From: a virus
Lineage: Duplodnaviria; Heunggongvirae; Uroviricota; Caudoviricetes
Length of the DNA stretch: 4,366 nucleotides
Strand: one strand, 5' to 3'
Virus record (IMG/VR): IMGVR_UViG_3300029253_000163
Below are positions 1 to 4,366 of this stretch, piece after piece. The notes beneath the pieces are model-generated. The model saw only the letters and a program-made list of their open reading frames with translations. It ran no database searches and was not told the DNA's origin. The stretch's first letter is position 1. Each line of letters begins with the position of its first letter. The position numbers and the translations under genes are program-made.

Positions 1-135
1 ACAGTTACCGGGAATTTTCTGTTCGGTTGCTGCAGTCACACACTCCTGCATTGTCCTGTGAACACTGACTGCAATATCAACTGGCTCTCCGGAAACAAGA
101 AAAACTGTCAGAACAAGTGCAAATGCTGTATTCAT
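1..135 (-). CDS. ydfD: YdfD-like small membrane (lysis) protein; first 45 codons only, gene continues past the window start
   Basis: Minus-strand ATG at 135..133 overlaps the dicB stop (ATGA). Translation MNTAFALVLTVFLVSGEPVDIAVSVHRTMQECVTAATEQKIPGNC... has a hydrophobic N-terminal segment and matches my recollection of E. coli Qin-prophage YdfD. Frame is open to the window edge. Confidence 0.7.
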   Translation of the reverse strand, partial: MNTAFALVLTVFLVSGEPVDIAVSVHRTMQECVTAATEQKIPGNC

Positions 136-320
136 TGCCAGCATCCTTTTTGTATCGGACGTAAACGGGCCAGCATTGAAAGAATGCATATTTTATTTAA
201 TAGCTCCCGTTCGTGTTTTCTCTTGTTAATGGCATCTTCAGTAAATACAGGGTTACTGATAGTGACACCAATTTCAAAACAACCTTCAGANNNNNNNNNN
301 NNNNNNNNNNNNNNNNNNNN
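132..320 (-). CDS. dicB: DicB cell-division inhibitor; start codon and first ~10 codons lie inside the masked N run, so 320 is inferred
   Basis: Minus-strand translation of 290..135 gives SEGCFEIGVTISNPVFTEDAINKRKHERELLNKICILSMLARLRPIQKGCWQ, then TGA at 134..132. I recognise this as the C-terminal 52 aa of the 62-aa DicB. Ten missing N-terminal codons place the ATG near 320. The ORF track's plus-strand ORF 58..372 is its antisense shadow. Confidence 0.85.
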   Translation of the reverse strand, partial: XXXXXXXXXXSEGCFEIGVTISNPVFTEDAINKRKHERELLNKICILSMLARLRPIQKGCWQ

Positions 321-351
321 NNNNNNNNNNNNNNNNNNNNNNNNNNNNNNN
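291..351. other. Masked or unknown bases (61 N); hides the dicB start codon and RBS
   Basis: Run of n in the sequence. Confidence 0.95.
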
Positions 352-487
352 GTGCCTGGTGCCTCCAGGTGACGTTAACCAGTTAACAATTAACGCCGGA
401 TACAGAGAATCCACCCATAACACTGTTTTTGGTTTTAACTGTTCCGCGTGCGCTCAGCCGCATTCACCACATCACAAAATTCACTTT

Positions 488-530
488 AAAAAGGGCGGCA
501 GAGCAGTCACGGAGTAAAACTGATACCGCC
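488..530 (-). terminator. Intrinsic terminator forming the DicF 3' end (GC stem plus U5)
   Basis: On the minus-strand RNA, GGCGG (530..526) and CCGCC (498..494) can pair, followed by UUUUU (492..488). Read-through would be needed for dicB expression. Confidence 0.55.
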
Positions 531-545
531 AAACGTCACCAGAAA
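488..545 (-). ncRNA. dicF: DicF small regulatory RNA (Hfq-dependent antisense sRNA targeting ftsZ and other mRNAs)
   Basis: Minus-strand sequence UUUCUGGUGACGUUUGGCGGUAUCAGUUUUACUCCGUGACUGCUCUGCCGCCCUUUUU matches the DicF sequence as I recall it. It lies between the upstream ORFs and dicB, as in the K-12 dicB operon. Exact 5' end is set by processing and is approximate here. Confidence 0.85.
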
Positions 546-676
546 ATTGATAACAGAGGGCGTTGCAGCGGGGTTGTCACTTAAGCGTATGGTCAACCTG
601 ACAACTCGGTGTCCTCAACGGGGAAGGAATAACCCCGCCATACTTACCGCCGCGCCATTTCGCGGGTTGCCACAAC

Positions 677-744
677 CGGAAGCGCACGGTCGAATTAAAT
701 TTAACGACACCGTACAGTGAGACGAACTTCGCCGTGCGCTTTCG
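677..744. repeat. Long imperfect inverted repeat (about 14-bp arms, 40-nt spacer) in the untranslated leader upstream of dicF
   Basis: Positions 677-690 (ccggaagcgcacggt) pair with 731-744 (gccgtgcgctttcg): 12 Watson-Crick plus 2 G-T/U pairs. Shorter GC hairpins lie nearby at 650-665 (CCGCG/CGCGG) and 621-637 (GGGG/CCCC). Confidence 0.6.
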
Positions 745-820
745 TGTTGTGTGCCTGCTTTTAACCACGTCAGGCGAGGTGGTATCCTTCTTATCCCGAA
801 TAACCAAGAAGGAAATCTAT

Positions 821-1021
821 ATGACTAAAGAAGAATTTGTCTCTTATATTTTTGATAAAACGGTTGAAATGTATGCCGCTACTTACGGGTCCTGTAATCC
901 TCTGAATAAACCAGAGGGGAAAGATGATTTCGACAAAATTTACCGCTTCTTGGAGGACCGCTATATCAAAAGGTTAGAGGACGCAGGGATCAAATCCCCA
1001 GTGAAGTCACCATTGTCCTGA
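821..1021 (+). CDS. Hypothetical 66-aa hydrophilic protein encoded antisense to the dicB operon
   Basis: ATG at 821 preceded by AAGGA (7-nt spacing); the ORF track's 734 start is an upstream alternative-start extension. Translation MTKEEFVSYIFDKTVEMYAATYGSCNPLNKPEGKDDFDKIYRFLEDRYIKRLEDAGIKSPVKSPLS. Overlaps the 3' end of the convergent 121-aa ORF by 32 nt. No homolog recognised and no clear promoter found. Confidence 0.4.
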   Translation: MTKEEFVSYIFDKTVEMYAATYGSCNPLNKPEGKDDFDKIYRFLEDRYIKRLEDAGIKSPVKSPLS

Positions 1022-1355
1022 GAACTTGCAGGACGTCATGATCGTAACTTCCATCCAAACCGCGACGGCAAATTGCTTCTCGTATTACCGGAAGCAGTTC
1101 GCTGGAAATCTCGGTGCATATTTCACCTGATAATACGCCTGGCTCAAGTGAGAATATTGGTGAACTTACGGTCTTGGTCTCGACAGTTTCAGAGTCAGTG
1201 CCAACATTATAAAGCTCAACGAAAGCGGTCTTGATTTTCCGGGCCAGATCTTTTGCTGGCTCGCTTGCAATATCTTTCCCGATTTCTCGCAGCACAGAAT
1301 GCAATGTATGAGCTGCTGTTTTCTGTACATCAGACGGTAAATCTTTAAATTCCAT
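990..1355 (-). CDS. Hypothetical 121-aa protein in the K-12 ydfB/ydfC position
   Basis: ATG at 1355 with GAGG 6 nt upstream; the track's 1367 start lacks an SD. Translation MEFKDLPSDVQKTAAHTLHSVLREIGKDIASEPAKDLARKIKTAFVELYNV... The N-terminal half looks like a helical soluble protein. Same strand as dicA and dicB, so presumably part of the leftward early operon. Confidence 0.55.
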   Translation of the reverse strand: MEFKDLPSDVQKTAAHTLHSVLREIGKDIASEPAKDLARKIKTAFVELYNVGTDSETVETKTVSSPIFSLEPGVLSGEICTEISSELLPVIREAICRRGLDGSYDHDVLQVLRTMVTSLGI

Positions 1356-1383
1356 CGTCAGCCTCATCAGTCAGTGTTTCTGG

Positions 1384-1521
1384 CTAACCAGCAACGCGCG
1401 CCAGATTCGGTTTNNNNNNNNNNNNNNNNNNGGTATATGTCATCGCGGTGAACGTACCGTCCTGGTTGGGGAACACGCCACATACCAGAGATTCGCTGTT
1501 GCCAAGATCGATAGTATCCAT
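1384..1521 (-). CDS. Hypothetical small protein (about 45 aa) in the ydfA position; 6 codons masked by N
   Basis: ATG at 1521 with GAGG 6 nt upstream. Translation MDTIDLGNSESLVCGVFPNQDGTFTAMTYT-(6 masked)-KPNLARVAG, stop TAG at 1386..1384. The track's 1575 start is a GTG extension without an SD. First ORF downstream of the OL-like operators. Confidence 0.5.
   Translation of the reverse strand: MDTIDLGNSESLVCGVFPNQDGTFTAMTYTXXXXXXKPNLARVAG
1414..1431. other. Masked or unknown bases (18 N) inside the ydfA-position ORF
   Basis: Run of n in the sequence. Confidence 0.95.
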
Positions 1522-1599
1522 GCTGACCTCATTTCCCCTTAACGCCGGGGTAGCGGAACTGTTTGCTGAGAACACCGTGCGGTGTCTTGATGGAAAGTA

Positions 1600-1653
1600 A
1601 TTTAGAATAACCTAACATGAGAGGCAAGTGTTTTTTGTTAGATTGATCTAACA
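1600..1653. promoter_or_regulatory. OL-like region: perfect operator TGTTAGA-N4-TCTAACA (1636-1653), a degenerate copy (1600-1617) and a candidate leftward promoter for the ydfA-dicF-dicB operon
   Basis: 1636-1653 is TGTTAGAttgaTCTAACA, extendable to a 26-bp palindrome (1632-1657). 1600-1617 is aTTTAGAataacCTAACA (5/7 and 6/7 half-site matches). On the minus strand TTGCCT-17-TAAATT (about 1624..1596) overlaps the degenerate operator. Same half-sites as the OR operators. Confidence 0.55.
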
Positions 1654-1689
1654 AAAAGGGTGGGCGCAACTAATCACTTGAAAAGAATG

Positions 1690-2097
1690 TTATTTTATTG
1701 ATTTATTTTTACGCGCTTTAAGCATTTCTTCGAAGAGTTTGTTGAAGTTTTCTACTCTTGCGCGCATTTCAGACAGCAAGGCTTCCTGCTCGGAAGATGG
1801 AAGAGCATCGAATAATTCGATCAATTCTTTGTGGTTGGGAGTTAGCTCTGTTTCCACATGAAGTTCTTGTGCAGGCACTGGTGCCTTGTCTTCGTCACCA
1901 AACATTAGCCATGTAGGTGAGCACTTCAGAGCATCCGCTAAAGCAAACAATCGTTTTCCGACTGGCTGGGTTTCGTCTCTTTCCCATTGTGAAATTGTGA
2001 CGTGAGCAACTCCAGCGAGGCGCGCAGCTTCTCGTTGTGTTAAGCGTAATTCTTTTCGTCGCGCCAGAACTCGCTGGCCTAGGGTTCTTGTATCCAT
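1690..2097 (-). CDS. dicA: DicA-type immunity repressor: N-terminal XRE/Cro-C1 HTH, short C-terminal domain, no LexA-like peptidase domain
   Basis: 135-aa ORF with HTH segment LRLTQREAARLAGVAHVTISQWERDE. The C-terminal part (LFALADALKCSPTWLMFGDEDK...NFNKLFEEMLKARKNK) matches recalled E. coli DicA. Divergent from a cro-like gene with palindromic operators on both sides. Confidence 0.9.
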   Translation of the reverse strand: MDTRTLGQRVLARRKELRLTQREAARLAGVAHVTISQWERDETQPVGKRLFALADALKCSPTWLMFGDEDKAPVPAQELHVETELTPNHKELIELFDALPSSEQEALLSEMRARVENFNKLFEEMLKARKNKSIK

Positions 2098-2164
2098 AGT
2101 TAGGTAATTCTAATTTTTCTTGACTTAGGTATCCCGCGCACAATAATGTTAGAAAAGTCTAACA
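2098..2164. promoter_or_regulatory. OR-like divergent control region: perfect operator TGTTAGA-aaag-TCTAACA (2147-2164) and a degenerate operator (2098-2115)
   Basis: 2147-2164 is a perfect inverted repeat over the dicC -10 and start site. 2098-2115 is aGTTAGGtaatTCTAAtt, directly upstream of the dicA ATG and overlapping a minus-strand TAGAAT -10-like hexamer (2112..2107), which would make the dicA transcript nearly leaderless. Confidence 0.6.
2120..2147 (+). promoter_or_regulatory. Candidate sigma70 promoter for dicC (TTGACT -16- AATAAT)
   Basis: -35 TTGACT at 2120-2125, -10 AATAAT at 2142-2147. The start site would fall inside the perfect operator. SD AGAGGGGG at 2165-2172 precedes the ATG at 2178. 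Confidence 0.5.
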
Positions 2165-2177
2165 AGAGGGGGCTTTG

Positions 2178-2405
2178 ATGCTTAAAGTTGACGCAATTAC
2201 TTTTTTTGGCAGCAAAACAAAGCTTGCCAATGCCGCAGGAGTGAGACTGGCAAGTGTTGCTGCTTGGGGGATACTGGTTCCTGAAGGTCGCGCGATGCGT
2301 CTACAGGAGGCATCTGGCGGGGAGCTTCAGTATGATCCCAAAGTTTATGACGAATATCGTAAGACGAAGCGGGCGGGGCGGTTGAACAATGAAAATCACT
2401 CCTGA
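2178..2405 (+). CDS. dicC: DicC, Cro-like regulator
   Basis: ATG at 2178 (the track's 2175 start is TTG) with SD AGAGGGGG. The 75-aa product MLKVDAITFFGSKTKLANAAGVRLASVAAWGILVPEGRAMRLQEASGGELQYDPKVYDEYRKTKRAGRLNNENHS matches recalled DicC. Divergent from the repressor. Confidence 0.85.
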   Translation: MLKVDAITFFGSKTKLANAAGVRLASVAAWGILVPEGRAMRLQEASGGELQYDPKVYDEYRKTKRAGRLNNENHS

Positions 2406-2910
2406 ACAGGCTCGTGAGGCTCTGGATGCCTGGATATGTCGACCAGGAATGACACAGGAGCAGGCGACGATATTAATCACTGAAGCATTCTGGGCTTTGA
2501 AAGAGCGCCCGAACATCGATGTTCAGCGTGTCACATATGAAGGTGGCGCGGTTGATCAGCGAGCGCTTAGCGTTAATCGAGTGAAGATATTCGAACGCTG
2601 GAAGGCTATCGACACCAGGGATAAGCGTGAAAAGTTCACAGCGCTAGTGCCTGCAATTATGGAGGCTATCCGGATTAGTGATTTCAGGTTGTATCGTGAG
2701 ATCAGTGATGGAAAAAGTATTACGTACATGATCGCCGGGTTAAATAAAGAATATGGCGATGTGGTGGAATCCGGACTGCTTTTTGCAGATCCTGCCGTTG
2801 TAGATCGTGAAACTGACGAACTTATAGAAAAAGCAATTGCTTTCAAGCTTGCGTATCGACAGCAATACCAACAAAAAGCTGGATGGAATTATGAGTCTTC
2901 TTTTTGCTGA
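2389..2910 (+). CDS. YdaT-family (CII-like) early regulatory protein
   Basis: 173-aa ORF whose start overlaps the dicC stop by 17 nt. N-terminus MKITPEQAREALDAW... and the internal LVPAIMEAI motif resemble Rac-prophage YdaT as I recall it. It sits in the cII position between cro and the replication gene. Confidence 0.7.
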   Translation: MKITPEQAREALDAWICRPGMTQEQATILITEAFWALKERPNIDVQRVTYEGGAVDQRALSVNRVKIFERWKAIDTRDKREKFTALVPAIMEAIRISDFRLYREISDGKSITYMIAGLNKEYGDVVESGLLFADPAVVDRETDELIEKAIAFKLAYRQQYQQKAGWNYESSFC

Positions 2911-3856
2911 ACGCCCACTGGTTATAAACACGCAGCTGGCAATGAAAATCGGCTTAAACGAAGCCATTGTTTTGCAACAACTGCACTACTGGTTGAGAGA
3001 TACCAACTCCGGTATGGAATGTGATGGTGTTCGCTGGATTTATAACACAACGGAACAATGGCTGGAACAGTTCCCATTCTGGTCAGAGTCAACGTTAAAG
3101 CGCGCGTTTGCAAGTCTGAAAACGCTGGGGCTTTTGCGTTGTGAAAAGCTCAATAAATCAAAGCGCGATATGACCAATTTCTACACGATCAACTATGGGA
3201 GCGAGCTTTTAGATGGTGGCAAATTGAACGAATCCATCGGTTCAAAATGCGCCGCTCCATCAGGTCAAAATGACACGATGGAAGAGGTCAAAATGAAACG
3301 CTCCATTGGTTCAAAACGATCCAATGTCATCGGGTCAAAATGGCCTGATGATCTTACAGAGAATACAACAGAGATTACTACAGAGAATAAAAACACTTTT
3401 CGTCCGGAAGCTTCGCAACCGGACCCGCAGACGACTGAACAGGATTTTTTAACCCGGAACTCCGACGCGGTTGTGTTTAGTGCGAAAAAACGCCAGTGGG
3501 GTAGCAGGGAGGATTTGGCGTGTGCGCAGTGGATCTGGGGGCGGATCGTGGGTCTCTACGAACAGGCAGCCAGTGATGATGGCGAGATCATGCGACCAAA
3601 AGAGCCTAACTGGACTGCCTGGGCCAATGACGTGCGCACAATGCGGATGCTGGATGGCAGAAGCCACAGACAAATTTGCGAAATGTTTGGTCGGGTTCAG
3701 CGAGATCCATTCTGGGTAAAAAACATCATGAGCCCGTCAAAGCTCCGCGAAAAATGGGACGAACTGGTCATCCGCCTGGGACGTTCACCTGTACAGCGTT
3801 GTGTTAATCATATTTCTGAACCGGATACAGAAATTCCGCCTGGTTTCAGAGGATAA
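2891..3856 (+). CDS. Phage replication initiator (O-like): N-terminal winged-HTH domain, iteron-encoded linker, C-terminal domain
   Basis: ATG at 2891 (the track's 2837 start is TTG), overlapping the upstream gene by 20 nt. The N-terminal segment LVINTQLAMKIGLNEAIVLQQLHYWL...FPFWSESTLKRAFASLKTLGLL has the pattern of phage replication-initiator HTH domains. Five iterons sit inside the gene, as in lambda O. Family assignment is by recall. Confidence 0.8.
   Translation: MSLLFAERPLVINTQLAMKIGLNEAIVLQQLHYWLRDTNSGMECDGVRWIYNTTEQWLEQFPFWSESTLKRAFASLKTLGLLRCEKLNKSKRDMTNFYTINYGSELLDGGKLNESIGSKCAAPSGQNDTMEEVKMKRSIGSKRSNVIGSKWPDDLTENTTEITTENKNTFRPEASQPDPQTTEQDFLTRNSDAVVFSAKKRQWGSREDLACAQWIWGRIVGLYEQAASDDGEIMRPKEPNWTAWANDVRTMRMLDGRSHRQICEMFGRVQRDPFWVKNIMSPSKLREKWDELVIRLGRSPVQRCVNHISEPDTEIPPGFRG
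3233..3342 (+). repeat. Origin-like iteron array: five direct repeats (core GGT(T)CAAAAYG) at about 23-bp spacing inside the replication gene
   Basis: tccatcggttcaaaatg (3233-3249), tccatcaggtcaaaatg (3256-3272), gaagaggtcaaaatg (3281-3295), tccattggttcaaaacg (3302-3318), gtcatcgggtcaaaatg (3326-3342). They are followed by an A-rich stretch with three ACAGAGA(A/T)T copies (3355-3388). Confidence 0.7.
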
Positions 3857-3896
3857 GTGTTGATTTCAGGTCATGAGGTAATTTTAAGGGGGAGTT

Positions 3897-4366
3897 GTGG
3901 CAAAAGTTTTTACACAAGAAGAGCGGGAAAAAATTAAAGGGCAGGTGGTGGAACTCGTGCGCCAGAGCGGTCGTGAGACGTTACGGCAACTGGAAGCTAA
4001 AACAGGTGCGACTAGATATCTGATGAGCGTTCTTGCCAGAGAGCTGGTAGCCAGTGGCGATGTATACAACTCCGGCTACGGGTTATTCCCGTCTGAACAG
4101 GCGCGTAAGGACTGGCAAAACGCCCGCAAAAAACTCTCGAGGGCAAAGGTGAAGAAACCTGCTGTGGTTGATCCGGACCTTATCTGGTCATTACCTGATG
4201 GAGAAATACGCCGCTACGACAGTCGTCTAAACATAATCTGTCGCGAGTGCCGGAAGAGCGAAGTTATGCAGCGTGTTCTGACGTTTTATCGTAAGCGTAC
4301 AGCGAGGGCCGTATTGACGGGGATGTGTTATTCAGCTGGCAGTGCTATGCGCCACGGAAGCAGTTC
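3897..4366 (+). CDS. Hypothetical protein with GTG start, 3' end beyond the window; occupies the slot after the replication initiator
   Basis: SD AAGGGGGAG (3886-3894) then GTG at 3897. The frame is closed by in-frame stops at 3861, 3879 and 3885 and open for 156 codons to the window end. Translation VAKVFTQEEREKIKGQVVELVRQSGRETLRQLEAKTGATRYLMSVLARELVASGDVY... No Walker A motif in the visible part. Absent from the ORF track because no stop occurs within the window. Confidence 0.55.
   Translation, partial: MAKVFTQEEREKIKGQVVELVRQSGRETLRQLEAKTGATRYLMSVLARELVASGDVYNSGYGLFPSEQARKDWQNARKKLSRAKVKKPAVVDPDLIWSLPDGEIRRYDSRLNIICRECRKSEVMQRVLTFYRKRTARAVLTGMCYSAGSAMRHGSS

What the first reader, a model, noticed from the sequence alone, without database searches (positions are those of the whole stretch)
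3233..3400. Replication origin embedded in the initiator gene: five iterons plus an A-rich ACAGAGA repeat
Five direct repeats at about 23-bp spacing, followed by an A-rich segment with three ACAGAGA(A/T)T copies, match the lambda-type ori layout of iterons plus a DNA-unwinding element inside the initiator gene. The same DNA encodes a repetitive low-complexity linker (IGSK...IGSK...IGSK, TENTTEITTEN). This suggests the prophage keeps an intact ori, unlike a fully decayed Qin remnant.
Basis: partly seen in the sequence, partly recalled or inferred. Interest (0 to 1): 0.45.

Follow-up and report, generated by a model that had tools for sequence, protein, structure and literature searches.

The report
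Phage replication origin inside initiator gene
The repeats are real and are most likely the replication origin of a lambda-like prophage, written into the middle of the gene for its own initiator protein; this layout is well known, but the same 23-base repeat spacing and a 12-base repeat turn up in thousands of related phage genes across distant bacteria.

Summary
Observation confirmed. There are five 23-nt dyad-symmetric repeats (3235-3350, core GGTCAAAATG) and three 12-nt (T/A)ACAGAGAWTAM units (3355-3390). They lie inside a 321-aa O-like initiator gene (2891-3856) of a Qin-locus prophage.

The repeats act at the DNA level. Period 23 puts the same core in all three reading frames. In the 12-mers, synonymous sites are invariant across homologues while neighbouring non-synonymous sites vary.

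The repeats sit between a predicted winged-helix N-domain and a C-domain 34% identical to lambda O, at the same relative position as ori-lambda. The 12-mer block is the least stable 40 bp of the gene.

In 62 of 76 homologues, from Enterobacterales to Firmicutes, the best repeat period at this spot is 22-24 bp. Repeat sequence follows the N-domain, not the C-domain.

An unbiased IMG/VR scan for the 12-mer pair returned 120 loci. All 96 with a strong upstream repeat had period 21-24.

K-12 Qin lacks this gene. A phage record with a 99.4% identical protein keeps the same array.

The lambda-type origin reading is supported by comparison, not by experiment. It is not an O-P replicon: no helicase-loader gene follows, and the initiator ends in a DnaT-like tail.

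Verdict: new member of a known kind, moderate interest.

The parts
2120..2147 (+). pR-like promoter (TTGACT-16-AATAAT). It drives cro, the YdaT/cII-like gene and the initiator, so rightward transcription runs through the origin.
   Evidence: Consensus scan, (10 of 12 matches). Position between the divergent repressor (1690-2097, minus strand) and cro (2178-2405). Promoter function is inferred.
2891..3856 (+). Initiator gene (321 aa), O-like. RefSeq annotates it as 'hypothetical protein' WP_000054497.1.
   Evidence: PHROG 391 'replication initiation O-like', E 1.4e-91. No Pfam family. Residues 142-294 are 34% identical to lambda O 130-270, E 1e-26. BL21 annotation.
2891..3220 (+). Coding region of the N-terminal winged-helix domain (about aa 1-110), the presumed iteron-binding domain.
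   Evidence: AlphaFold2 model, mean pLDDT 83, pTM 0.74, with H-H-b-b-H-H-b-b topology. Foldseek against PDB returns winged-helix DNA binders, including the plasmid initiator N-domains 4pql, 5kbj and 4pt7 (E 7e-3 to 9e-2, TM 0.5-0.6). The profile hits 15,488 50%-identity clusters.
3235..3257 (+). Iteron 1: CATCGGTTCAAAATGCGCCGCTC
   Evidence: D2
3258..3280 (+). Iteron 2: CATCAGGTCAAAATGACACGATG
   Evidence: D2; arm of I1
3281..3303 (+). Iteron 3: GAAGAGGTCAAAATGAAACGCTC
   Evidence: D2
3304..3326 (+). Iteron 4: CATTGGTTCAAAACGATCCAATG
   Evidence: D2
3328..3350 (+). Iteron 5: CATCGGGTCAAAATGGCCTGATG, the best palindrome of the five.
   Evidence: D2; arm of I1
3355..3400 (+). Presumed DNA-unwinding element: three 12-nt units (TACAGAGAATAC / AACAGAGATTAC / TACAGAGAATAA) followed by an A-run.
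   Evidence: It is the least stable 40-bp window of the gene (3354-3393: dG -44.3, against a window mean of -54.1 with sd 3.9), 72% A+T and 50% A. Synonymous sites are invariant across homologues.
3443..3790 (+). Coding region of the C-terminal domain, homologous to the lambda O C-terminal half.
   Evidence: No solved relative by sequence.
3791..3853 (+). C-terminal tail VQRCVNHISEPDTEIPPGFRG, which resembles the C-terminus of host DnaT.
   Evidence: NCBIfam NF002770, positions 160-179. PDB phmmer matches to 2ru8, 6aep and 9zbt_D over the last 21 residues. Both matches are weak (E 0.005-0.04) because they are short.
3897..4366 (+). DUF977 / Ren-like gene directly downstream, running off the window. 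It sits where lambda has P; no helicase-loader gene is present.
   Evidence: Pfam PF06163, E 7e-27. PHROG 142 'Ren-like exclusion protein'. The same gene order occurs in phage PhiR42_1.

Best explanation
This is the vegetative replication origin of a lambdoid (Qin-locus) prophage, embedded in the linker-coding part of its own initiator gene.

Proposed mechanism:
- Shown by sequence: dimers of the winged-helix N-domain would have five dyad-symmetric 23-bp iterons to bind, spaced about 2.2 helical turns apart.
- Inferred by analogy with the lambda O-some: the resulting nucleoprotein complex stresses the adjacent A-rich block of three 12-nt CAGAGAnTAC units, which melts.
- Inferred: rightward transcription from the pR-like promoter passes through and assists opening.
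- Most speculative step: the host helicase is brought in by the C-terminal domain and its DnaT-like tail, because no phage P, DnaC or DnaB gene follows.

The 12-mer is a conserved DNA element, not just an A+T-rich stretch. It is probably recognised in a sequence-specific way, possibly as single-stranded DNA by the initiator.
For: The repeats are real and non-random.

They are under DNA-level constraint:
- Period 23 is not a multiple of 3, so the same core GGTCAAAATG is read as G-S-K, G-Q-N and V-K-M.
- In the 12-mers, synonymous third positions are fixed. A appears in 122 of 122 units. G appears in 119 of 122 and is never the synonymous GAA. T appears in 122 of 129.
- The adjacent non-synonymous position is nearly random (0.27 bits).
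- In L048, L041, L056, L061 and L064, 11-nt spacing puts copies in different reading frames.

Position and layout equal ori-lambda: iterons in mid-gene followed by an A-rich tract (PMC7466680; PMC3349717). The C-half is homologous to lambda O. The N-domain is a winged helix. The 12-mer block is the least stable part of the gene.

Conservation:
- 62 of 76 homologues (100-45% identity, Gram-negative and Gram-positive) have their best self-period of 22-24 bp exactly at this spot. Only 7 of 76 do so in the N-domain DNA and 8 of 76 in the C-part. The cores differ among clades.
- Klebsiella phage L003 has the same N-domain with a different C-domain and keeps the same iterons. Shigella phage L004 has the same C-domain with an unrelated N-domain and carries 15-bp repeats instead.
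- Iteron similarity tracks the N-domain (Spearman 0.48, Mantel p<=0.001) more than the C-domain (0.14).

Unbiased motif scan: 120 IMG/VR loci were found by the 12-mer pair alone. Of these, 112 lie inside ORFs of at least 200 aa. All 96 with a strong upstream period have period 21-24. In 111 of 114, the N-parts fall in one BLASTP cluster.

Natural hints of function:
- Phage record PhiR42_1 carries a 99.4% identical gene and the same array.
- A 15-kb circular plasmid has a homologue next to parA as its only replication candidate, with two iterons and a degenerate 12-mer / AT tract.
Against: - There is no experimental test of binding, unwinding or replication for this element. No paper in the searchable library describes it.
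- No helicase-loader or helicase gene follows, so the helicase-delivery step is unknown.
- The DnaT-tail match covers only about 20 residues (E 0.005-0.04). The role of that tail in DnaT is not settled in the papers read (PMC4132743, PMC13377028).
- In BL21 the prophage is defective (frameshifted integrase, truncated exonuclease, an IS element, no virion genes), so the origin may never fire in situ.
- Iterons 1, 3 and 4 are imperfect palindromes.
- 14 of 76 distant homologues show no clear period-23 array.
- Correlation of iterons with the N-domain could partly reflect physical linkage.
Confidence: 0.8

Rival explanations
1. The repeats merely encode a repetitive, low-complexity, disordered linker between two protein domains. 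Under this reading the DNA periodicity is a by-product of a protein repeat or of replication slippage and has no cis-acting role.
For: The region does encode a linker predicted to be disordered (pLDDT below 50 from residue 110). The 12-nt units are in frame and give the peptide TE-x-T repeats. The codon phase of the 12-mer is the same in 118 of 120 loci. Copy number varies slightly among close relatives.
Against: A 23-nt period rotates the reading frame, so the iteron core is translated three different ways. Synonymous sites of the 12-mer are invariant and go against usual codon preference, while non-synonymous sites vary. Some homologues carry 12-mers in different frames. The spacing is kept at 22-24 bp across phyla while the encoded peptides differ completely.
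Confidence: 0.03
2. The array is a relic or a regulatory or exclusion site rather than an active origin in this element. The initiator binds it, for example for autoregulation or titration, or to interfere with related superinfecting phages as described for cloned ori-lambda iterons. Replication cannot start because the replication module has lost its helicase-loading partner.
For: No P, DnaC or DnaB gene is downstream. The BL21 prophage is heavily decayed. Cloned lambda iterons together with oop inhibit rep-lambda phages (PMC3349717). Deletion alleles with a single iteron persist in some E. coli.
Against: The phage record PhiR42_1 has the same gene order with no loader. So does a 43.7-kb circular lambdoid element, so the absence of a loader looks like the native state of this module. 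83 of 87 close relatives keep the full 5+3 layout. The 12-mer / unwinding block, which is not needed for titration, is the most strongly conserved part.
Confidence: 0.12
3. The dyad repeats act at the RNA level. They would form hairpins in the cro-to-initiator mRNA that modulate translation, stability or termination.
For: The RNA fold of 3225-3400 is more stable than its shuffles (-43.9 against -31.9 kcal/mol, z = -3.0), with one hairpin per iteron for units 2, 4 and 5.
Against: Hairpins follow automatically from the dyad symmetry of protein-binding sites. All units within one array share the same core sequence, which an RNA helix does not require. Spacing is fixed near two helical turns across phyla. 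No Rfam family matches there. The unstructured 12-mer block is the best conserved part.
Confidence: 0.03
4. The conserved 12-mer block is kept mainly as a recombination joint, that is, a short shared sequence at a module boundary that lets phages swap C-terminal domains. It would not be an unwinding element.
For: C-domains change immediately after the 12-mers, while the N-domain, the iterons and the 12-mers travel together. Lambda's annotated hybrid junctions (misc_recomb at 39157 and 39165) lie just after its A-rich tract.
Against: A recombination joint would not need tandem copies at 12-nt phasing, an A-rich strand bias, or minimal helix stability. It would also not need to persist between phages of hosts too distant to recombine. 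The two roles are not mutually exclusive.
Confidence: 0.05

Closest known systems
ori-lambda within gene O of phage lambda (and the six-iteron origins of Stx phages 933W and P27)
   Same: - The origin sits in the middle of the initiator gene, downstream of pR, cro and a cII-like gene.
- It has 4-6 dyad-symmetric iterons with a central CAAAA, about 20-24 bp apart.
- An A-rich, purine-skewed, easily melted tract follows.
- The C-terminal half of the protein is homologous (34% identity).
- The lambda tract (ACAAAAGAC...TACAAAAGAA...TCAGAGAATTC) looks like a degenerate version of the 12-mers.
- In-frame iteron deletions arise by recombination between repeats.
(PMC7466680, PMC3349717)
   Different: - The N-terminal DNA-binding domain is not detectably related to the lambda O N-domain (no Pfam hit; only the C-half aligns).
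- The iterons are 23 nt with a different sequence.
- The unwinding block consists of three well-defined 12-mers rather than a diffuse AT tract.
- No P gene follows.
- The protein carries a DnaT-like C-terminal tail that lambda O lacks.
RepA_N-type plasmid initiators (PDB 4pql, 5kbj, 4pt7)
   Same: The winged-helix N-domain is among the best structural matches to the predicted N-domain. From my own knowledge, not tested here: these plasmids also place iterons inside the rep gene between the N- and C-domains.
   Different: The fold-level similarity is weak (E about 1e-2, 15-20% identity). Generic winged-helix regulators score almost equally well. There is no sequence relationship and the genetic context differs (plasmid rather than phage).
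Phage 'replisome organiser' and DnaD-like initiators (for example SPP1 G38P with oriL)
   Same: PHROG labels for relatives of the N-domain include 'DnaD-like helicase loader' and 'replisome organizer'. Some superfamily members carry a DnaB_2 / DnaD-type C-domain. From my own knowledge: the origin lies inside the initiator gene.
   Different: No Pfam replisome-organiser family is hit by this protein. Here the C-domain is lambda-O-like. Relatedness to G38P itself was not tested.
E. coli DnaT (primosomal protein i)
   Same: The last 20 or so residues match (DnaT ...VNTVSEPDSQIPPGFRG; here ...VNHISEPDTEIPPGFRG).
   Different: Nothing else aligns, so this is a shared terminal peptide and not family membership.

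Membership tests
Lambda-type phage origin (iterons plus unwinding element inside the initiator gene) | Located within the initiator ORF, between the DNA-binding N-domain and the C-domain | tested here: met
   The array lies at aa 115-167 of a 321-aa protein. The N-domain model ends at about residue 110. The lambda-O-like region starts at about residue 142-185.
Lambda-type phage origin (iterons plus unwinding element inside the initiator gene) | Four or more direct repeats of about 18-23 bp with internal dyad symmetry, spaced about two helical turns apart | tested here: met
   Five 23-nt units at spacing 23, 23, 23 and 24. Units 2 and 5 are 78% self-complementary. The count is more than chance would give.
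Lambda-type phage origin (iterons plus unwinding element inside the initiator gene) | An adjacent A+T-rich region of low helix stability on the promoter-distal side | tested here: met
   3354-3393 is the least stable 40 bp of the gene, 72% A+T with 50% A on the top strand.
Lambda-type phage origin (iterons plus unwinding element inside the initiator gene) | Iteron sequence follows the specificity (N-terminal) domain of the initiator, not the C-domain | tested here: met
   Comparisons of L003, L004 and L005. 76-locus survey. Mantel test 0.48 against 0.14. Physical linkage is a caveat.
Lambda-type phage origin (iterons plus unwinding element inside the initiator gene) | The initiator binds the iterons and the fragment supports initiator-dependent replication | not testable with these tools
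   Indirect evidence only: a phage record with the same module, and a 15-kb plasmid whose only replication candidate is a homologue with two iterons.
Lambda O-P replicon | A P-type (or DnaC-type) helicase-delivery gene immediately downstream of the initiator | tested here: not met
   The next gene is DUF977 / Ren-like. The same holds in PhiR42_1 and in L290.
Lambda O protein family (Pfam Phage_rep_O N-domain) | N-terminal domain matches the lambda O N-domain | tested here: not met
   No Pfam family at E<=0.01. BLASTP against lambda O aligns only residues 142-294.
Lambda O protein family (C-terminal domain) | C-terminal domain homologous to lambda O residues about 180-270 | tested here: met
   34% identity over 153 aa, E 1e-26. 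tblastn hits to lambda and Stx phages.
DnaT | Full-length similarity to DnaT (N-domain, linker and three-helix C-domain) | tested here: not met
   Only the last 20-21 residues match, 16 bits against a cut-off of 201. A profile of the C-domain finds no DnaT.
Qin cryptic prophage | Same chromosomal locus and dicB-dicF-dicA-dicC immunity region as K-12 Qin | tested here: met
   In BL21 the element lies between rspB and ydfJ and carries dicB, ydfD, hokD, rem and pinQ. DicF is at 493-544. K-12 Qin aligns to window 1-2668 at 77-95% identity but lacks 2669-4366.

The most novel reading that the evidence does not exclude
The 12-nt CAGAGAnTAC repeat is not just an A+T-rich spacer. It would be a sequence-specific origin-opening or helicase-loading signal, comparable in role to DnaA-trios or the 13-mers that plasmid Rep proteins bind as single strands. 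It has been co-inherited with about 23-bp-spaced iterons and a Pfam-less winged-helix initiator domain in phages and some plasmids of Proteobacteria, Firmicutes and other phyla, and it is held constant at synonymous codon positions. In the enterobacterial branch, the initiator would recruit the host helicase machinery through a DnaT-mimicking C-terminal peptide, without any phage-encoded loader.
Probability: 0.35. Interest if true: 0.65.

Novelty: new member of a known kind. Interest (0 to 1): 0.42.

Why it matters
For this window, the result turns a 'hypothetical protein' present in about a third of complete E. coli genomes into an annotated initiator with a mapped origin. 1745 of 5426 genomes hold at least 80% of the 2800-3900 query, including the B/BL21 laboratory strains. 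It also shows that the B-lineage Qin-type prophage retains a replication module that K-12 Qin has lost. That matters for prophage induction, for local over-replication of the surrounding chromosome, and for strain engineering.

More generally, the survey defines a simple DNA signature for locating origins in a very large, Pfam-less initiator superfamily (15,488 50%-identity clusters). The signature is a 22-24 bp iteron period followed directly by CAGAGAnTAC 12-mers inside an ORF. The survey also gives a cleanly testable case of DNA-level selection overriding codon choice. Finally, the missing loader gene together with the DnaT-like tail offers a concrete hypothesis for how such phages engage the host helicase.

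Tried and rejected
- Pfam and NCBIfam gave no family for the initiator except the short DnaT tail. Pfam on six superfamily members was also largely empty.
- A PDB sequence search with a profile of the C-domain found nothing useful.
- Literature searches returned nothing relevant: 'Qin prophage' plus iterons, PhiR42, and the 12-mer sequences themselves (primers only).
- The Eru1-3 'non-lambdoid' Stx replication types (PMC8044961) were checked and are different modules.
- The papers read on DnaT do not assign a partner to its extreme C-terminus, so the mimicry idea stays a lead.
- My first, narrow N-domain HMM suggested that 44 of 115 motif-bearing viral loci lacked the domain. Inspection and clustering showed they are remote members of the same superfamily, so I dropped the idea that the 12-mer is independent of the initiator family.
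- I did not test whether presence of the tail anticorrelates with phage-encoded helicases. Several tail-bearing Pantoea loci are followed by ORFs of 435-484 aa that I did not identify.
Full report
**What is in the window**

The window is the early-right region of a lambdoid prophage at the Qin locus of E. coli.
- Positions 352-4193 are 99.5% identical to BL21(DE3). There the element lies between rspB and ydfJ and carries dicB, ydfD, hokD, rem and pinQ.
- Gene order in the window:
  - dicB and DicF RNA (493-544, minus strand; Rfam 76.7 bits);
  - a DicA-like repressor (1690-2097, minus strand);
  - Cro (2178-2405);
  - a YdaT/cII-like protein (2389-2910);
  - a 321-aa protein (2891-3856);
  - a DUF977 / Ren-like gene (3897 onward).
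- A sigma-70-like promoter (TTGACT-16-AATAAT, 2120-2147) sits where pR would be.

**The observation**

- Five 23-nt direct repeats start at 3235, 3258, 3281, 3304 and 3328. Three 12-nt units fill 3355-3390 and are followed by an A-run.
- The core GGTCAAAATG (at most 1 mismatch) occurs four times, only in the array. 0.41 occurrences are expected, and 0 of 200 shuffles reach four.
- Each unit is an imperfect palindrome (CATCnGG-TCAAAATG-nCCnGATG). Units 2 and 5 are 78% complementary to each other.

**DNA-level or protein-level?**

The evidence points to DNA-level constraint.
- 23 is not a multiple of 3, so the same core is translated as I-G-S-K, S-G-Q-N and E-V-K-M in successive units.
- The 12-mers are in frame (TE-x-T), so they needed a separate test. 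I used homologues chosen by their N-domain only, and a pattern that leaves the third codon positions free. Results:
  - the Thr third position is A in 122 of 122 units;
  - the Glu third position is G in 119 of 122 and never A;
  - the next third position is T in 122 of 129;
  - the neighbouring second codon position is almost random (0.27 bits).
- In several homologues (L048, L041, L056, L061, L064) an 11-nt spacing puts successive copies in different frames.
- Clustered CAGAGA is essentially absent from the flanking DNA: 9 hits in 692 kb.

**The protein**

- Pfam has no family for it. PHROG 391, 'replication initiation O-like', matches at 1.4e-91.
- Residues 142-294 are 34% identical to lambda O residues 130-270 (E 1e-26). 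The N-terminal 110 residues do not align with lambda O.
- An AlphaFold2 model of residues 1-115 (14-sequence alignment, pLDDT 83, pTM 0.74) is a winged helix.
- Its best PDB matches are winged-helix DNA binders, including the N-domains of plasmid initiators (4pql, 5kbj 'Rep-DNA complex', 4pt7 'initiator'). The scores are weak (E about 1e-2, TM 0.5-0.6).
- A profile of this domain hits 15,488 clusters (at 50% identity) in the 1.84-billion-protein library.

**Comparison with lambda**

- In lambda the annotated iterons lie at O residues about 117-145. They are followed by ACACAAAAGACACTATTACAAAAGAAAAAAGAAAAGATTATTCGTCAGAGAATTC.
- This is the published anatomy: four 18-bp iterons joined to a 38-bp AT-rich sequence in the middle of O (PMC3349717). 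Stx phages have six iterons (PMC7466680).
- Here the iterons lie at residues 115-153, followed by the 12-mers.
- Block 3354-3393 is the least stable 40 bp of the gene (dG -44.3, against a window mean of -54.1 with sd 3.9), 72% A+T with 50% A on the coding strand.
- The layout therefore matches point for point.

**Relatives**

- *Same N-domain, same iterons.* Phage record PhiR42_1 has a 99.4% identical protein annotated 'DNA replication protein O' and the same five iterons. Klebsiella phage vB_VIPKPNMC05 has the same N-domain (72%) with an unrelated C-domain. It has six 23-bp AGGTCAAAATG units plus three ACAGAGA 12-mers.
- *Diverged N-domain.* SopranoGao (N-domain 54%) keeps the 23-bp spacing but has a GGGCAAAATGCCCC core.
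- *Different N-domain, different repeats.* Shigella phage VIT_AJPSC has the same C-domain and tail with an unrelated N-domain. It has 15-bp repeats instead.
- *Survey of 76 loci.* These came from a scan of one genome per species with the N-domain (100-45% identity). They span Enterobacterales, Pantoea, Pseudomonas, Acinetobacter, Bacillus, Staphylococcus, lactobacilli, clostridia and others.
  - The best self-match period in the linker DNA is 22-24 in 62 loci. The figure is 7 for the N-domain DNA and 8 for the C-part.
  - Printed in register, the arrays show 3-7 dyad units of the form GGnCAAwwTGnCC whose sequence differs by clade. They are followed at once by 2-5 copies of (T/C)ACAGAGAnTAC.
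  - Array similarity follows N-domain similarity (Spearman 0.48, Mantel p<=0.001) more than C-domain similarity (0.14).

**An unbiased check**

I scanned IMG/VR for CAGAGANTACNNCAGAGANTAC alone. Findings:
- 118 have the motif in the same codon phase;
- 112 lie inside an ORF of at least 200 aa;
- 96 have a strong repeat in the 150 nt upstream, and in every one of those the period is 21-24 (exactly 23 in 85);
- in 111 of 114, the N-terminal parts fall into one BLASTP single-linkage cluster.

A narrower HMM had found the domain in only 71 of 115 loci. The remainder are remote members with other iteron sequences and varied C-domains, some of the DnaB_2 / DnaD type.

So the N-domain superfamily, iterons at about 23-bp spacing and the 12-mers travel together as one module.

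**Natural variation and hints of function**

- Among 87 close relatives, 83 keep the 5+3 layout, one has a fourth 12-mer, and one has lost 93 bp.
- The 290-aa alleles (P0016-21) are an exact in-frame deletion from iteron 1 to iteron 5 that leaves one hybrid iteron. From my own knowledge, this is the same kind of event as the classical in-frame ori-minus deletions of lambda.
- A 15,074-bp circular plasmid of Candidatus Paracaedibacter acanthamoebae has a homologue next to parA/copG as its only visible replication candidate. That homologue carries two CGACAAAATGTCGGAAT units 22 bp apart, then TACAAAGAATACAGACAATTC and an AT-rich tract. Two iterons plus the AT tract are the reported minimum for unwinding in lambda (Dodson et al. 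1986, as cited in PMC7466680).
- K-12 Qin aligns with the window only up to 2668 and has no initiator gene.

**Mechanism**

- *Shown:* the anatomy and its evolutionary constraint.
- *Inferred by analogy with lambda (PMC7466680):* N-domain dimers bind the iterons, the complex distorts the DNA, the 12-mer block melts, and transcription from the pR-like promoter helps.
- *Speculative:* helicase delivery.
  - No P, DnaC or DnaB gene follows in the window, in PhiR42_1, or in a 43.7-kb circular lambdoid element with a 69% identical initiator.
  - The protein ends in VNHISEPDTEIPPGFRG, which matches the last residues of host DnaT.
  - A P.GF[RK] tail occurs in 19 of 76 homologues on several different C-domains.
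  - In DnaT, residues 154-179 add to cooperative ssDNA binding (PMC4132743), and the C-domain docks on PriA (PMC13377028). Neither paper assigns a partner to the extreme tail.
  - Lambda O binds AT-rich single strands (PMC7466680). That makes initiator recognition of the 12-mers as ssDNA a reasonable and testable idea.

**Rivals**

- *Purely protein-level repeat.* Excluded by the frame and synonymous-site data.
- *RNA hairpins.* They are predicted (z = -3.0), but they follow from the dyad symmetry and do not explain the shared cores, the fixed spacing or the 12-mers.
- *Relic or exclusion site without origin activity.* This remains possible for this decayed prophage. It is unlikely for the module, because intact phage records share the loader-less order.
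- *Recombination joint at the 12-mers.* Plausible as an additional role, but it does not explain the tandem phasing or the low stability.

**Verdict**

The finding is correct and well placed. It is a lambda-type, initiator-embedded origin of a family that is unannotated here but very widespread, so it is a new member of a known kind.

The most interesting by-products are two. One is the phylum-spanning 12-mer held at synonymous sites. The other is the loader-less initiator with a DnaT-like tail.

Noticed in passing
window 3791-3853 (aa 301-321 of the initiator): The C-terminal peptide VQRCVNHISEPDTEIPPGFRG matches the extreme C-terminus of host primosomal protein DnaT. A P.GF[RK] tail recurs in 19 of 76 N-domain homologues on several unrelated C-domains. 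Lambda O lacks it.
   Followed up: partly
window 3857-4366; L002 5007-5782; L290 6990-8137: No P-, DnaC- or DnaB-type gene follows the initiator. The next gene is DUF977 / Ren-like or PerC, then a methyltransferase, including in a complete phage record and in a 43.7-kb circular lambdoid element.
   Followed up: partly
L167 1380-2252 (alleles P0016-P0021): The 290-aa alleles carry an exact 93-bp in-frame deletion from iteron 1 to iteron 5, leaving one hybrid iteron. This is probably a natural ori-minus variant made by recombination between repeats.
   Followed up: yes
window 493-544 (minus strand): DicF small RNA, Rfam RF00039, 76.7 bits, full length.
   Followed up: yes
window 291-351 and 1414-1431: There are two runs of N (masked sequence). 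By alignment with BL21, the first covers the start of dicB and the sequence just upstream of it. The second lies inside the DUF1391 (ydfA-like) gene. The underlying bases were not read.
   Followed up: partly
window 1-290 and 4194-4366 versus L001: The window is not BL21 itself. The first 290 nt are only 95% identical to BL21 and the match ends at 4193. The DUF977 ORF here is still open at 156 aa at the window end, against 119 aa annotated in BL21.
   Followed up: no
P0121-P0150: Many of the best profile hits are proteins of 400-880 aa with two separate matches to the N-domain, that is, tandem winged-helix initiator domains.
   Followed up: no
L289 5736-6992 (plasmid NZ_CP008942.1): A 15-kb circular plasmid of an Acanthamoeba endosymbiont carries a homologue next to parA/copG as its only apparent replication gene. 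The gene contains two 22-bp-spaced iterons and a degenerate 12-mer / AT tract.
   Followed up: partly
L007, L008, L053; L061, L063: DNA nearly identical to this E. coli prophage sits in metagenome bins labelled Veillonella, Bacillota and Collinsella. Two identical 41,200-bp contigs with a Staphylococcus-phage-like initiator are filed under Nocardioides and Micromonospora. These are probably binning or contamination errors.
   Followed up: no
window 3219-3326: On top of the 23-nt period, alternate iterons resemble each other more closely. The right arms alternate between CGCTC and CGATG, giving a 46-nt super-period. Many homologues also show 46-nt spacings of the best k-mer.
   Followed up: no
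L018, L022, L023, L029, L031, L033, L039, L042, L043 (downstream ORFs): In Pantoea-type loci the tail-bearing initiator is followed by an ORF of about 140 aa and then one of 435-484 aa. I did not identify these ORFs. The larger one could be a phage-encoded helicase, which would bear on the DnaT-tail idea.
   Followed up: no
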